A stretch of DNA of 64,000 nt from Mobula hypostoma (taxonomy: Eukaryota). The notes beneath the pieces were generated by a model. That model did not search any database. It saw only the letters and a list, made by a program, of their open reading frames with translations, and was not told the DNA's origin. Numbering within the stretch: the stretch's first letter is position 1; each line of letters opens with the position of its first letter. The translations under genes were made by a program, and so were the position numbers. The stretch lies in contig NC_086108.1 of the NCBI RefSeq assembly GCF_963921235.1, positions 21,390,001 to 21,454,000 on the forward strand, read 5' to 3'. This document shows, in pieces, positions 1 to 4,275 of this stretch.

Positions 1-28
1 TGATATTCTCAAAGTAACTGAACCCCCC

Positions 29-222
29 GGGGTGTATGGGGTGTCAGGGAGGGGTAGCACCTCTGGTGGGGGAACATGTCGCGTCCTTTTCAGGGCGGTT
101 AGTCCACCTTTGGTCCCCACCTGGCACTCAGCTCTCACCTGTGGCTCCCTGTAGCTGTTTGCATGCGACAGCGGCCACACCCCAGGCAATGGCTTCGACA
201 AGCCGGCTAAACCAGGTGAGGG
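29..222 (+). ncRNA. HDV-like self-cleaving ribozyme (predicted) at the element 5' end
   Basis: P1 GGGGTGT 29-35 / ACACCCC 177-183; P2 132-142 / 211-222; P3 GGC 143-145 / GCC 174-176; L3 starts TCC; AGGCAA 184-189; P4 GGCTT-cgac-AAGCC 191-204; J4/2 GGCTAA with catalytic-equivalent C207. Confidence 0.75.
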
Positions 223-593
223 TAGCCGACGGGTCTCAAACCCTCGGTGAGATAGGGAGTTGTCTATCCCAGCATGTGAAGACAGACTCCGGCGGATTGA
301 GTGAACGAGACCTATGGAAGGTCCAACGGTCAAGAAGGCGGTCTCTACAAGCGTCGTGGAACGTGTAGAGCAGGACAAGACACAGAAGACGTCTCAGTCA
401 TCCACTGCGCCTAGTCCCATCTCCAGCCGTCTAGACTCTGTCTTGCCACTGGATCCAGATGGGAATTGGGAAGAGAGAGTGAGGCTGACGCTGCGCAACT
501 CTCCCTCACTTAAATCCAAATCACGCGCTAGTCTTGACACCATCATAATGGTGTCGAGGTCTTCATCGACGTCAATGATGGACGAACAACAAC
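29..593 (+). mobile_element. Non-autonomous RTE-type (bipartite 5'UTR+3'UTR) retroelement, apparently full length
   Basis: 11-bp TSD AACTGAACCCC at 16-26 and 594-604; (AAC)n tail at ~585-596; no RT ORF; structured GC-rich 5' end. Confidence 0.75.
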
Positions 594-1020
594 AACTGAA
601 CCCCAAACCCAAGCACAAAATAAACTACAAATAGCATTCATCGTTAACAATCTGAACCCAAGCTATGATTTCAAGAATTTAGTAAAGAAAAAAGATATAA
701 TTAAAAATCAGCTTTTAAAGTTGTACATAAATTAGTTGTGATATCTGGCTTAGTGAAGTCACTTAACTCATCAGGGCAGAAAAGGAGAGTTTTCAAAATT
801 TCACTGAACTCCTCATATCACAACCCACTCTTAAAAACACAGGAAGAGGCCACTGGCACAATTGCTTTATGCTAGTGCTTACATTCCACGTGTTCAGTCC
901 AATCTTGCTGCATCACAGCTTATCAACCTATCCTGCCATTTCCTTTTCCTTTCAATTTTCCTTGGATTACACTAAAATTAATGTGTTGTTTACTTAAATA
1001 CCTTTACATTATATTTTTGA

Positions 1021-1645
1021 GTCAGAGGCTGTTTGAGATGCACACCAATGGGAGGATTTAATAGGTGGTGGGAGCTCATTGCCACTGCCCCCTGGCTATA
1101 ACAACCTTAACAAACCAATTATACCAAACTTAAGGTCTCAGATAAGCTCTGACAACCACGTCCAGCACCAGGCATTCACACGTGGCTAAGCTACTAAGCC
1201 TGGCAGAACCATTTCTATTGACGTGAGAAGGGGTAAACGTGGGTTATTGGCACCTTAAGACCAATCTCTTCAGGCATATGAGGTTCATCAGTTGTGGCTG
1301 ACAGCTCATCTAGGAGAAGGAAAACTCTGATCTCAAACCTCAGCTGCCTTGCGGCTATACCTGCTCATGGGAAAAGCTTCAGGAGTAAACCCCGAGGAAA
1401 AATCCAGAGATTGAGTCCCTAACGCAGTCCCATGTCAAGTTCAACGCTGACTGGCAACTCCTGCGACGCTGCTTGCGCCAAATTGTATCGGTCTGTCCCG
1501 TTCCTTTGGATTTATCAGCTGCATGGAGGGTGGAGCCTGCTACATGGGCATCACTTGCTCTCCACATTGAATTGACCTCACTTACATATCATGCAGACAG
1601 CCAGGATGCAACGTCCATGGTCAACCCTGACCAGCGGAGCTCAGC
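1021..1645 (+). mobile_element. Decayed non-autonomous LINE-derived element (RTE/Vingi-like 5'UTR)
   Basis: GC-richer non-coding island with the GGAGAAGGAAAACTCTGATCTCAAACC motif I associate with RTE-like 5'UTRs; boundaries approximate, no clear TSD. Confidence 0.4.
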
Positions 1646-1721
1646 TTTCTCACTGCTTTCTAAATAATGAAGTTTCACTTCAATACTTTTACAAGTTGAT
1701 TAGTGACCACCTTGTATTTAT

Positions 1722-4275
1722 GAACTGAGGGGTGACCTGATAGAGGTGTATAAGATGATGAGAGGCATTAATCAAGTGGATAGTCAGAGGCTTTTTCCCA
1801 GGGCTGAAATGGCTAACACGAGAGGGCACAGTTTTAAGGCGCTTGGAAGTAGGTGTAGAGGAGATGTCAGGGGTAACTTTTTTATGCGGAGAGTGGTGAG
1901 TGCGTGGTTTTAGCTAAGATAGACTGGCAAATGACACTTAAAGGGTTGATGGTGGATATGCTATGGAAAGCATTTAAAGATTGCATGGATGAACTACATA
2001 TATTGTTCATCCCAGTTTGGCAAAAGAATAAATCAGGGAAGGTAGTGCACCCGTGGCTGACAAGGGAAATTAGGGATAGTATCAATTACAAAGAAGGAGC
2101 ATACAAATTAGCCAGAAAAAGTGGCTCACCTGAGGACTGGGAGAAATTCAGAGTCCAGCAGAGGAGGACAAAGGGCTTAATTAGGAAAAAGAAAAAAGAT
2201 TATGAGAGAAAACTGGCAGGGAACATAAAAACTGACTGTAAAAGCTTTTATAGATACGTGAACAGAAAAAGATTGGTTAAGGCAAATGTAGGTCCCCTAC
2301 AGACAGGAACAGGTGAATTGATTATGGGGAGCAAGGACATGGCAGACCAATTGAATAACTACTTTGGTTCTGTCTTCACTAAGGAGGACATAAATAATCT
2401 TCCGGAAATAGTAGGGGACAGAGGGTCCAGTGAGATGGAGGAACTGAGCGAAATACATGTTAGTAGGGAAGTGGTGTTAGGTAAATTGAAGGGATTAAAG
2501 GCAGATAAATCCCCAGGGCCAGATGGTCTGCATCCCAGAGTGCTTAAGGAAGTAGCCCAAGAAATAGTGGATGCATTAGTGATAATTTTTCAAAACTCTT
2601 TAGATTCTGGACTAGTTCCTGAGGATTGGAGGGTGGCTAATGTAACCCCGCTTTTTAAAAAAGGAGGGAGAGAGAAACCGGGGAATTATAGGCCGGTTAG
2701 CCTAACATCGGTGGTGGGGAAAATGCTAGAGTTAGTTATCAAAGATGTGATAACAGCACATTTGGAAAGCGGTGAAATCATCAGACAAAGTCAGCATGGA
2801 TTTGTGAAAGAAAAATCATGTCTGACGAATCTCACAGAATTTTTTGAGGATGTAACTAGTAGAGTGGATAGGGGAGAACCAGTAGATGTGGTACTTTTGG
2901 ATTTTCAAAAGGCTTTTGACAAGGTTCCACACAGGAGATTAGTGTGCAAACTTAAAGCACACGGTATTGAAGGTAAGGTATTGATGTGGATAGAGAATTG
3001 GTTGGCAGACAGGAAGCAAAGAGTGGGAATAAACGGGACCTTTTCAGAATGGCAGGCAGTGACTAGTGGGGTACCGCAAGGCTCAGTGCTGGGACCCCAG
3101 TTGTTTACAATATATATTAACGACTTGGATGAGGGAATTAAATGCAGCATTTCCAAGTTTGCGGATGACACGAAGCTGGGCAGCAGTGTTAGCTGTGAGG
3201 AGGATGCTAAGAGGATGCAGGGTGACTTGGATAGGTTGGGTGAGTGGGCAAATTCATGGCAGATGCAATTTAATGTGGATAAATGTGAGGTTATTCACTT
3301 TGGTGGCAAAAACAGGAAAACAGATTATTACCTGAATGGTGGCCGATTAGGAAAAGGGGAGGTGCAACGAGACCTGGGTGTCATTATACACCAGTCATTG
3401 AAAGTGGGCATGCAGGTACAGCAGGCGGTGAAAAAGGCGAATGGTATGCTGGCATTTATAGCAAGAGGATTCGAGTACAGGAGCAGGGAGGTACTACTGT
3501 AGTTGTACAAGGCCTTGGTGAGACCACACCTGGAGTATTGTGTGCAGTTTTGGTCCCCTAATCTGAGGAAAGACATCTTTGCCATAGAGGGAGTACAAAG
3601 AAGGTTCACCAGATTGATTCCTGGGACGGCAGGACTTTCATATGATGAAAGACTGGATCGACTAGGCTTATACTCGCTGGAATTTAGAAGATTGAGGGGG
3701 GATCTTATTGAAACGTATAAAATTCTAAAGGGATTGGACAGGCTAGATGCAGGAAGATTGTTCCCGATGTTGGGAAGTCCAGAACGAGGGGTCACAGTTT
3801 GAGGATAAAGGGGAAGCCTTTTAGGACCCAGATTAGGAAAAACTTCTTCACACAGAGAGTGGTGAATCTGTGGAATTCTTTGCTACAGGAAACAGTTGAG
3901 GCCAGTTCATTGGCTATATTTAAGAGGGAGTTAGATATGGCCCTTGTGGCTAAAGGGATCAGGGGGTATGGAGGGAAGGCTGGTACAGGGTTCTGAGTTG
4001 GATGATCAGCTATGATCATACTGAATGGCGGTGCAGGCTCGAAGGGCCAAATGGCCTACTCCTGCACCTATTTTCTATGTTTCTAATAGGCTGCTGGCAA
4101 CGGTGGTGGAGGCAGATATGATAGGTTCTTTTAAGAGACTCCTAGATAGGTACATGCAGCTTAGAAAAATAGAAGGCTATGGGTAATCCCAGGTAATTTC
4201 TAAAGTAAGTACATGTTCGGCATAGCATTGTGGGCCAAAGGGCCTGTATCGTGCTGCAGGTTTTTTAAGTTTGTA
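1722..4275 (+). mobile_element. Older CR1 3' end, split by a younger CR1 (pieces 1722-1907 and 4086-4275)
   Basis: LRGDLIEVYKMMRG-type coding remnant stops at GTGCGTGG (1907) and resumes at ~4086 into a CR1-type 3'UTR. Confidence 0.8.
1910..4085 (+). mobile_element. Young CR1 LINE, 5'-truncated, RT pseudogene
   Basis: ORFs 1904-3502, 3503-3802, 3799-3996 with [22 protein letters not shown] and KFADDTK; CAG>TAG stop at 3500-3502; frameshift ~3775; TTTCTATG tail. Confidence 0.95.

What the first reader, a model, noticed from the sequence alone, without database searches (positions are those of the whole stretch)
29..222. HDV-like ribozyme with a hairpin inserted in L3, starting at the 5' end of a non-coding retroelement
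Seen: every element of the HDV double pseudoknot is present in order. P1 GGGGTGT (29-35) / ACACCCC (177-183); a multi-helix J1/2 closed by GTGTCAG 41-47 / CTGGCAC 121-127; P2 132-142 / 211-222; P3 GGC / GCC; L3 T146-C-C-C-T-G151, which keeps the U20/G25 equivalents; AGGCAA-T...G-G-C207-T-A-A, aligning with HDV GGGCAAC...GGCGAA. The predicted cleavage site (before G29) is 2 nt from the left TSD. Unusual: a 19-nt hairpin GCTGT..ACAGC (154-172) sits inside L3, which is normally 7-8 nt, so standard descriptors could miss it. The two deviations (A184 for G, T190 for C) both fit CpG decay. Established: RTE, R2 and ingi-type LINEs use 5' HDV-like ribozymes. Inference: a non-autonomous family that makes its own 5' end by self-cleavage. 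It lies antisense to ATF6, so it would not cut the host pre-mRNA.
Basis: partly seen in the sequence, partly recalled or inferred. Interest (0 to 1): 0.9.

Follow-up and report, generated by a model that had tools for sequence, protein, structure and literature searches.

The report
Self-cutting RNA heading a ray retroelement
Window 29-596 is a decayed copy of an abundant short retroelement, cut down from an RTE-type LINE, whose first 194 bases form a hepatitis-delta-type self-cleaving RNA fold with an unusual extra hairpin in its core loop.

Summary
Window 29-222 has every HDV-type helix and core motif. It is one copy of a ~568-nt family: 4312 first-look candidates, and 776 exact copies of a 39-nt core.

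In 94 distinct copies, 52 start exactly at G29, the predicted cleavage site. None share upstream sequence.

I found the parent: a ~3.5-kb endonuclease plus reverse-transcriptase LINE, RTE-like, in the same genome. It carries the same ribozyme at its 5' end. The short family is its first 517 nt joined to its ~45-nt 3' UTR, a "bipartite non-autonomous LINE".

A covariance model found related ribozyme cores upstream of the ORF in 15 of 80 related RTE loci from metagenomes. Covariation is strong: 17 of 19 pairs change on both sides, and 94% of cells pair against 34-44% in slid controls. P1 covaries too.

Only three lineages (this family, L124, L152) carry the L3 hairpin; the other 13 have a 7-8-nt L3.

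RTE 5' HDV-like ribozymes and ribozyme-bearing non-autonomous derivatives are already published. The L3 hairpin was absent from the papers I searched.

Cleavage itself is untested. The ATF6 claim was not verified.

The parts
16..26 (.). Left target-site duplication AACTGAACCCC. Bases 27-28 (CC) are extra and lie between it and the element.
   Evidence: Read. The same 11-mer recurs at 594-604.
29..596 (+). One copy of a ~568-nt bipartite non-autonomous LINE. It is the 5' 517 nt of an RTE-like LINE joined to that LINE's ~45-nt 3' UTR and (CAA/AAC)n tail.
29..35 (+). P1 5' strand GGGGTGT. The predicted cleavage is 5' of G29.
   Evidence: 52 of 94 copies start here. Relatives have compensatory P1 variants.
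36..131 (+). J1/2 peripheral rod, of the P1.2 type. The closing stem is 39-48/120-129. Bases 38-44 repeat the P1 heptamer.
   Evidence: The rod is also present in L124 and L152.
132..142 (+). P2 5' strand.
   Evidence: 9 of 11 P2 pairs change on both sides among 16 relatives.
143..145 (+). P3 5' strand GGC.
   Evidence: 3 of 3 pairs covary.
146..173 (+). L3. 146-151 reads TCCCTG (family majority TCCCCG); C147 and C148 are the P1.1 partners. The inserted hairpin is 154-158/168-172.
174..183 (+). P3 3' strand GCC (174-176) followed by the P1 3' strand ACACCCC (177-183).
184..190 (+). P1.1 3' partners and J1.1/4. The window reads AGGCAAT; the family majority reads GGGCAAC.
191..204 (+). P4 hairpin GGCTT-CGAC-AAGCC.
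   Evidence: 5 of 5 pairs covary.
205..210 (+). J4/2 GGCTAA. C207 sits at the place of the catalytic cytosine.
   Evidence: The GC of this motif is present in 16 of 16 aligned relatives (read).
211..222 (+). P2 3' strand.
223..545 (+). The rest of the LINE 5' UTR. It holds a small ORF from ATG 314, of which 77 codons lie before the deletion junction.
546..596 (+). LINE 3'-UTR module. It completes a hairpin with 533-545 and is followed by a second hairpin and the CAA/AAC repeat tail.
594..604 (.). Right target-site duplication.

Best explanation
The first 194 nt of the element (window 29-222) encode an HDV-like, nested double-pseudoknot, self-cleaving ribozyme inherited from an RTE-like LINE.

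Inferred mechanism: copies are transcribed as part of longer host or read-through transcripts. The ribozyme folds as P1/P1.1/P4 stacked beside P2/P3, with the J1/2 rod pinching P1 and P2 together. It cuts immediately 5' of G29. This releases an RNA whose first base is the element's first base. The partner LINE's protein then recognises the shared ~45-nt 3' UTR and tail and copies the RNA into new sites by target-primed reverse transcription.

The short family is an internal-deletion derivative: the 5' UTR joined to the 3' UTR. This lineage of the ribozyme carries a 19-nt hairpin inserted in the 3' part of L3. The copy in the window has three CpG-decay changes in the core and is probably inactive.

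Shown here: the fold, its covariation, the 5'-end clustering, and the parent LINE. Inferred: catalysis, co-transcription, and mobilisation by that LINE.
For: 1. Complete HDV architecture with core motifs. No hits in 60 shuffled windows or 5000 shuffled elements.

2. The family majority restores GGGCAAC and TCCCCG: G184 in 74/78, C190 in 72/78, C150 in 67/78. The 39-nt core is exact 776 times in the genome, against 0 for the reversed control.

3. 5' ends: 52 of 94 distinct copies start at G29 and 67 of 94 within 29-31. Among 67 upstream flanks there is only one low-complexity match. Of 48 copies analysed, 38 have a TSD of at least 7 nt, and in 19 of those it abuts G29 directly.

4. Parent LINE. 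L076/L102 continues past window-equivalent 544 into EN (PF03372, below cut-off) and RT (PF00078, E 4e-15) and ends in the same 3' module. A further 39 copies span that junction. All 20 sampled LINE 5' ends carry the same ribozyme after unrelated flanks, and 9 of 20 have an intact GGGG start.

5. Homologous cores lie upstream of the ORF, on the ORF strand, in 15 of 80 related RTE loci. 94.3% of cells pair against 34-44% when slid. 17 of 19 pairs change on both sides against 3-8 when slid. 0 of 500 shuffles reach the observed values.

6. Within the hairpin-bearing lineages there are compensatory changes:
   - P1: GTGGTGT/ACACCAC and AGGGTGT/ACACCCT.
   - P2: T140A with A214T.
   - P4: TACG/CGTA.
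   So the fold stayed under selection after the hairpin arose.

7. [quoted passage not shown]
Against: - No cleavage assay and no RNA data exist for this element.
- The L3 loop is part of the catalytic core. A 28-nt L3 was not in the literature I searched, so the hairpin could impair catalysis.
- The cleavage-site pair is G-C in this family, not the G.U of HDV. The HDV state is recalled, not checked. Relatives L170 and L178 do have G.U.
- A subfamily with A34 gives an uncompensated A.C in P1: 25 of 78 copies, and 173 exact 25-mers. Its copies still start at G29. So either P1 tolerates the mismatch or the 5' end does not depend on P1.
- The lineage variants A93 and C42 in the J1/2 rod are also uncompensated.
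- The L3 hairpin shows only one-sided changes: 0 of 5 pairs change on both sides, in 4 sequences.
- Alignments A5 and A7 were fitted to the model's structure, which favours pairing.
- Rfam families do not match.
Confidence: 0.82

Rival explanations
1. The fold is a true descendant of an RTE HDV-like ribozyme, but the L3 hairpin has inactivated it in this lineage. On this view the exact 5' end at G29 comes from an internal RNA polymerase II start site. The conserved structure would then serve another role, such as translation or binding of the LINE protein.
For: - L3 is 28 nt here, against 7-8 nt in 13 of 16 relatives.
- The A34 subfamily amplified with a P1 mismatch and still starts at G29.
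- The cleavage pair is G-C.
- There is no RNA or biochemical evidence.
- Kojima 2018 (PMC5786205, passages read) notes that LINE 5' ends also drive transcription.
Against: - The core motifs GGGCAAC and GGCTAA and the TCC..G of L3 are invariant in all three hairpin-bearing lineages.
- P1, P2 and P4 changed by compensatory substitutions after the hairpin arose. That is expected if the catalytic fold is still selected.
- P1 begins at the first base of the element in both the LINE and the short family.
Confidence: 0.13
2. The element is an ordinary SINE. It would be transcribed by RNA polymerase III from a small-RNA-derived head, and the HDV-like motif would be incidental.
For: It is short, high in copy number, and has a LINE-type tail and TSDs.
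Against: - No tRNA, 5S or 7SL match in Rfam at E up to 10.
- No tRNA found by ARAGORN.
- The whole 5' 517 nt is the 5' end of a LINE.
Confidence: 0.02
3. The resemblance to the HDV fold is due to chance in a GC-rich repeat.
For: Rfam gives no match.
Against: - 0 descriptor hits in 60 shuffled windows and 5000 shuffled elements.
- Covariation across 16 sequences.
Confidence: 0.01

Closest known systems
HDV-like ribozymes at the 5' ends of RTE-clade LINEs. Source: Ruminski et al. 2011, cited in PMC5786205 and PMC4908430; the paper itself is not held and was not read. The mosquito Agam-2 ribozymes with a structured J1/2 are described in PMC4908430 (passages read).
   Same: - The ribozyme occupies the very 5' end of an EN+RT single-ORF LINE.
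- The cleavage site is the first base of P1, which is also the first base of the element.
- There is a long structured J1/2 (P1.2-type) domain.
- The core motifs in L3, J1/4 and J4/2 are present.
   Different: - A 19-nt hairpin is inserted in L3.
- The cleavage pair is G-C.
- The host is a cartilaginous fish. 'A ray' comes from earlier scan notes and was not checked by me.
- Here the main carrier is a deletion derivative present in thousands of copies.
Bipartite non-autonomous LINEs of the RTE clade, such as MAR4_MD, WALLSI3 and RTESINE2 (Kojima 2018, PMC5786205, passages read).
   Same: - Made only of the 5' and 3' ends of the parent LINE.
- Keeps the extreme 5' end. Kojima suggests the 5' ribozyme as the reason for this.
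- Has a microsatellite-type tail.
   Different: For this family the ribozyme is actually mapped and supported by covariation, and the deletion junction is defined at window 545/546. I did not compare sequences with the named families, because no repeat library was available.
R2 ribozyme and the R2-derived non-autonomous elements made by internal deletion (PMC3414825, abstract from the search listing; PMC3774820, passages read).
   Same: - The 5' HDV-like ribozyme is retained in a non-autonomous deletion derivative.
- J1/2 is long and variable.
- Duplicated P1 sequences are discussed for R2, and a duplicated P1 heptamer is present here.
   Different: - R2 is specific to the 28S gene and is co-transcribed with rRNA, whereas this family is dispersed.
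- The LINE clade is different.
L1Tc/NARTc of Trypanosoma cruzi, L1TcRz (PMC3383444 and PMC3185411, abstracts from the search listing).
   Same: The autonomous LINE and its truncated non-autonomous partner share the same 5' HDV-like ribozyme.
   Different: - It belongs to the Ingi clade and occurs in a protist.
- Its ribozyme is a 77-nt minimal form that doubles as a promoter.
Genomic HDV ribozyme and the mammalian CPEB3 ribozyme.
   Same: Nested double pseudoknot. GGGCAAC follows P1 and GGC.AA precedes the P2 3' strand. The HDV letters are recalled from memory and were not checked in a call.
   Different: - No sequence-level homology could be shown, and the Rfam HDV families do not match.
- L3 is 28 nt.
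- J1/2 is 96 nt.

Membership tests
HDV-like self-cleaving ribozyme (nested double pseudoknot) | P1 helix whose first 5' nucleotide is the cleavage site, pairing with the strand that directly follows the P3 3' strand | tested here: met
   - There are 7 Watson-Crick pairs, 29-35 with 177-183.
- P1 varies with compensation in L124, L152, L170 and L178.
- The element's 5' end coincides with the P1 start.
HDV-like self-cleaving ribozyme (nested double pseudoknot) | P2 pseudoknot: the strand just 5' of P3 pairs with the 3' terminal strand after J4/2 | tested here: met
   There are 11 pairs. 9 of 11 change on both sides among 16 sequences, and 96.2% of cells pair.
HDV-like self-cleaving ribozyme (nested double pseudoknot) | Three-pair P3 closing a short (7-8 nt) L3 that begins U-C-C and holds a G at position 6 | tested here: inconclusive
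   - P3 is met, and 3 of 3 pairs covary.
- L3 begins TCC..G in all three hairpin lineages.
- L3 is 26-28 nt because of the inserted hairpin. The other 13 of 16 relatives have 7-8 nt.
HDV-like self-cleaving ribozyme (nested double pseudoknot) | P1.1: two C of L3 pair with two G immediately after the P1 3' strand | tested here: met
   In the family majority, C147 and C148 pair with G185 and G184. In the window copy A184 breaks one of the two pairs.
HDV-like self-cleaving ribozyme (nested double pseudoknot) | P4 helix between J1.1/4 and J4/2 | tested here: met
   There are 5 pairs, and 5 of 5 change on both sides.
HDV-like self-cleaving ribozyme (nested double pseudoknot) | Catalytic cytosine in J4/2 just before the P2 3' strand | tested here: met
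   C207 lies in GGCTAA. The G-C of this motif is present in 16 of 16 aligned relatives. Its catalytic role was not tested.
HDV-like self-cleaving ribozyme (nested double pseudoknot) | G.U wobble at the cleavage-site pair (typical of HDV; recalled from memory) | tested here: not met
   The pair is G29-C183 in this family and G-C in L124. It is A-U in L152 and G.U in L170 and L178. T183 occurs in some contigs of other organisms.
HDV-like self-cleaving ribozyme (nested double pseudoknot) | Site-specific self-scission that gives a 5'-OH product | not testable with these tools
   This needs an in vitro transcription and cleavage assay or 5'-OH RNA sequencing.
Bipartite non-autonomous LINE | The 5' part equals the 5' end of an autonomous LINE present in the genome | tested here: met
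   - L076 shares window-equivalent 76-544 and then continues into EN and RT.
- 39 more copies span the junction.
- 20 LINE 5' ends align from the G29 equivalent.
Bipartite non-autonomous LINE | The 3' part equals the LINE 3' end; there is no EN or RT; insertions carry TSDs, 5' truncations and a repeat tail | tested here: met
   - The LINE stop codon is followed by the same ~45-nt module and AAC tail.
- There are no Pfam domains in the short element's ORF.
- TSDs and truncated copies are present, and one copy has an inverted 5' part.
RTE clade of LINEs (for the parent element) | About 3-4 kb, a single EN+RT ORF, a very short 3' UTR with a short-repeat tail, and RTE placement in an RT phylogeny | tested here: inconclusive
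   - The element is about 3.5 kb.
- Homologues are ~1060-aa EN+RT proteins on ~4-kb contigs, and one is named 'Craniofacial development protein 2'. That this name marks RTE/BovB relatives is recalled from memory.
- The 3' UTR is about 45 nt.
- No phylogeny with reference clades was made.
SINE (Pol III, small-RNA-derived head) | A head derived from tRNA, 5S or 7SL | tested here: not met
   Rfam at E up to 10 found none in window 1-3000. ARAGORN found none in L030, L066 or L072.

The most novel reading that the evidence does not exclude
The 19-nt hairpin between the G25-equivalent and the P3 3' strand would be a tolerated, or even functional, new peripheral element of the HDV fold (a 'P3.1'). 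It would define a structural subclass of active HDV-like ribozymes that motif descriptors with a fixed short L3 cannot find. That subclass has spread in at least three RTE lineages and, through a deletion derivative, to thousands of copies in a vertebrate genome.
Probability: 0.4. Interest if true: 0.6.

Novelty: new variant of a known kind. Interest (0 to 1): 0.48.

Why it matters
- It gives a comparative, covariation-backed case that a non-autonomous LINE derivative keeps its parent's 5' ribozyme. Kojima 2018 put this forward only as a suggestion.
- It shows that the catalytic-core loop L3 of HDV-like ribozymes can carry a stem-loop. If the ribozyme is active, descriptor and covariance-model searches that fix L3 at 7-8 nt under-count this ribozyme class. 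The hairpin would also be a new handle for studying core folding.
- The family offers hundreds of near-identical natural copies in which to look for 5'-OH-ended RNAs in vivo.

Tried and rejected
- **Rfam.** The E-value scan of window 1-3000 and of ten related loci gave no HDV-family match.
- **Other copies in the window.** BLAST found none.
- **Old RTE from an earlier scan note (L031).** It shares no sequence with the element and gives no ribozyme hit.
- **Search for the parent LINE by the 3' end.**
  - 30 of 30 loci anchored on the 3' 73 nt were the short family.
  - A 'not-family' IUPAC pattern in front of the 3' module gave 21 hits, all family copies with small indels.
- **91-nt core as a DNA query.** It returned nothing, although exact-pattern counts show the core is abundant. 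I took this as a limit of the tool.
- **L073 and L093.** The family sequence breaks off after window-equivalent 258 and 388. What replaces it was not identified, and neither was taken as the LINE.
- **Protein search with the small ORF.** One 205-aa hit, a degenerate copy.
- **Sequencing runs.** No RNA holder is listed. All four runs laid were contigs, so no RNA starts or ends could be read and table 6 was empty. The table of differences was truncated, so I make no conservation-rate claim from it.
- **RNAalifold.** It was spoiled by wrong coordinates for L110 and was redone.
- **ATF6.** A bZIP-motif regular expression on the six-frame translation found nothing, and a look-up of earlier notes near the window was empty. 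The claim stays untested.
- **Literature on an L3 insertion.** Searches and passages of PMC3774820 and PMC4908430 showed no report. Ruminski 2011 and the Webb/Luptak reviews are not held, so absence from print is not established.

Full report
**What is in the window.**

Bases 29-596 are one insertion flanked by the direct repeat AACTGAACCCC (16-26 and 594-604). Two extra C lie before G29, and the element ends in a CAA/AAC repeat.

- P1, 29-35 with 177-183, seven Watson-Crick pairs.
- P2, 132-142 with 211-222, eleven pairs and one bulge.
- P3, 143-145 with 174-176.
- A five-pair hairpin, 154-158 with 168-172, inside L3.
- P4, 191-195 with 200-204.
- GGCTAA at 205-210, directly before the P2 3' strand.

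The 96-nt J1/2 folds into a rod of -45.8 kcal/mol, z about -3.4.

I wrote my own descriptor. It asks for P1, P3, an L3 starting TCC, RG.CAA after P1, P4, C.AA, and P2. It finds this one core in the window and nothing on the other strand. It gave no hit in 60 shuffled 64-kb windows or in 5000 shuffles of the element. Rfam reports no HDV family here.

**The family.**

The window lies in a 3.48-Gb genome. Earlier scan notes call it a ray; I did not check that.

A search with the element gave 4312 first-look candidates. All 40 that were scored were 96-100% identical. A 39-nt stretch of the core occurs exactly 776 times, and its reversed control 0 times.

Among 78 distinct copies of the ribozyme region, the majority differs from the window at only three places:
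- C150, in 67 of 78.
- G184, in 74 of 78.
- C190, in 72 of 78.

All three are CpG sites. The ancestral core therefore reads TCCCCG in L3 and GGGCAAC after P1. The window copy is therefore a decayed copy with one P1.1 pair broken.

**5' ends.**

I examined 99 loci, gathered in three ways: by whole-element similarity, by a 3' anchor, and by a core anchor. They held 94 distinct copies.
- 52 start exactly at the G29 equivalent.
- 15 more start at 30-31.
- 9 start at 32-37.
- 18 are further truncated.

Of 67 upstream flanks compared all against all, only one low-complexity pair matched. No sequence is shared upstream of G29.

Of 48 copies that start at 29 and reach the 3' end, 38 have a recognisable TSD of at least 7 nt. 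In 19 of those it abuts G29 directly. Truncated copies with their own TSDs and one copy with an inverted 5' part fit LINE-type target-primed reverse transcription.

**The parent LINE.**

Sampling by the 3' end gave only the short family, 30 of 30 loci. All 40 core-anchored loci matched the family over the part of the element they hold. Seven were atypical:
- L066 and L072 carry a ~145-nt insert at 545/546.
- L092 has an inverted 5' piece.
- L068 is rearranged near its 3' end.
- In L073 and L093 the family sequence breaks off after window-equivalent 258 and 388. What follows was not identified.
- L076 leaves the family sequence after window-equivalent 544 and proved to be the parent.

Its continuation, L102, encodes an AP-type endonuclease (PF03372, 21 bits, below the cut-off) and a reverse transcriptase (PF00078, E 4e-15). 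The main ORF stops at TAG. About 45 nt follow that are 91% identical to the end of the short element, and then an AAC tail.

A query across the junction found 39 further LINE copies of 87-93% identity. The 5' ends of 20 of them carry the same ribozyme sequence after mutually unrelated flanks. Nine of the 20 have the intact GGGG start.

The short family is thus the LINE's first 517 nt joined to its 3' UTR, a 'bipartite non-autonomous LINE' in the terms of Kojima 2018 (PMC5786205, passages read). That paper lists RTE, Ingi, Vingi and R2 as the clades that make such elements. It suggests their 5' ribozymes as a reason why the extreme 5' end is kept.

Homologues of the RT region are ~1060-aa EN+RT proteins on ~4-kb contigs, at 57-72% identity for the best. 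One is named 'Craniofacial development protein 2'. These features, with the ~45-nt 3' UTR, point to the RTE clade. I made no phylogeny.

**Comparative test of the fold.**

Using 25 homologues (A1), I fetched 80 related RTE loci from metagenome contigs.

My descriptor found the same ribozyme, with an L3 hairpin, in L124 and L152. It also matched L126, which I set aside as a probable chance hit: its core letters differ, and neither covariance model matched it.

| Helix | This family | L124 | L152 |
|---|---|---|---|
| P1 | GGGGTGT / ACACCCC | GTGGTGT / ACACCAC | AGGGTGT / ACACCCT |
| P2 | reference | one extra T in the 3' strand | T140A with A214T |
| P4 | GGCTT / AAGCC | near-identical | TACG / CGTA |

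The core motifs TCC..G, GGGCAAC and GGCTAA are unchanged in all three.

A covariance model of the 91-nt core (R1) hit 9 of the 80 loci. A second model built from those hits (R2) hit 15 of 80. All hits lie on the ORF strand and upstream of the ORF.

| Measure | A7, 16 sequences | A5, 11 sequences |
|---|---|---|
| Cells that pair | 94.3% | 95.5% |
| Cells that pair when 3' partners are slid | 34-44% | 36-44% |
| Pairs with changes on both sides | 17 of 19 | 14 of 24 |
| Same measure when slid | 3-8 | 1-4 |
| Shuffles reaching observed values | 0 of 500 | 0-1 of 500, by measure |

In A7 the pairs that change on both sides are P2 9 of 11, P3 3 of 3 and P4 5 of 5. These alignments were fitted to the model, which favours pairing.

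P1 is outside the models. It pairs perfectly where I could place it: L170 GTGGTGT/ACACCAT and L178 GGTGGTG/CACCACT, both with G.U at the cleavage pair.

**The hairpin.**

Only this family, L124 and L152 have the extra 19-21 nt. The other 13 aligned sequences have a 7-8-nt L3, such as TCCTCGT, at the same place. The insertion is lineage-specific.

Within the hairpin only one-sided, wobble-compatible changes are seen: 0 of 5 pairs with double changes, in 4 sequences. Its own pairing is therefore conserved but not proven by covariation.

The J1/2 rod is also present in L124 and L152. Webb et al. 2016 (PMC4908430, abstract and passages read) report that such a structured J1/2 accelerates large HDV-like ribozymes by nearly three orders of magnitude.

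**Points against, or left open.**
- No cleavage or RNA evidence was available.
- The cleavage pair is G-C here.
- An A34 subfamily has an uncompensated A.C in P1 (25 of 78 copies; 173 exact 25-mers) and yet starts at G29.
- The lineage variants A93 and C42 in the rod are uncompensated.
- The heptamer GGGGTGT is repeated at 38-44 and could compete for the P1 3' strand. No copy starts at 38.
- Contigs of runs from four other coded organisms hold copies that are mostly 80-95% alike, a few more. Variants there include T183 and A191 with T204, and contig ends match the LINE's ORF terminus. That table was truncated, and all four runs are contigs.

**Comparison with what is known.**

HDV-like ribozymes at RTE, R2, Ingi and LOA 5' ends are published, as cited in PMC5786205. 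So are non-autonomous derivatives that keep them: NARTc (PMC3383444, abstract) and R2 deletion derivatives (PMC3414825, abstract).

New here:
- A documented vertebrate family with its parent LINE.
- Covariation support for the fold.
- The L3 stem-loop, which my searches did not find in print. Key papers are not held, so it may have been described.

**Verdict.**

This is a new variant of a known kind, of moderate interest.

Noticed in passing
window 38-44 (and L030:1510-1516): The P1 heptamer GGGGTGT is repeated 2 nt downstream and forms the 5' side of the J1/2 rod's closing stem. It could compete for the P1 3' strand. The repeat is degenerate in L124 and L152, and a LINE subfamily has C42, which would spoil it.
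   Followed up: partly
window 314-545 (small ORF from ATG 314): In the short family the ORF runs through the deletion junction and the CAA tail with no stop: 22 of 24 copies with the exact start string. In the LINE it ends 12 codons after the junction. tblastn finds related peptides (SSRLDSVLPL.PD) upstream of the main ORF in about ten related RTE loci, with 72-82% DNA identity. It may be a conserved small upstream ORF or a conserved RNA element.
   Followed up: partly
L066:767-909 and L072:768-912: Two older copies (81% alike) carry a ~145-nt insert exactly at the 545/546 junction, with a B-box-like GAGTTCGAATCC motif. ARAGORN calls no tRNA. This may be a chimeric subfamily with a SINE-derived piece.
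   Followed up: partly
L047:1180-1579: One copy has bases 206-302 inverted in front of 291-596. The pattern looks like twin priming during LINE-type integration.
   Followed up: no
P0002-P0121: Proteins 57-72% identical to this LINE's RT region are named from a tapeworm, a frog, a slug, a lancelet, a sea snail and a monitor lizard. Such a spread hints at horizontal transfer of this RTE lineage. No tree was made.
   Followed up: no
L103-L122 (LINE 5' ends): A LINE subfamily shares C42 and T102 (7-8 of 20), and A93 is in 13 of 20. A93 is also the state listed in contigs of other organisms, so it may be ancestral.
   Followed up: no
L170:356-408 and L175:301-376: There are weak Rfam int-alpA matches (E about 0.6) inside the J1/2 domain of two hairpin-less relatives. 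They are most likely chance.
   Followed up: no
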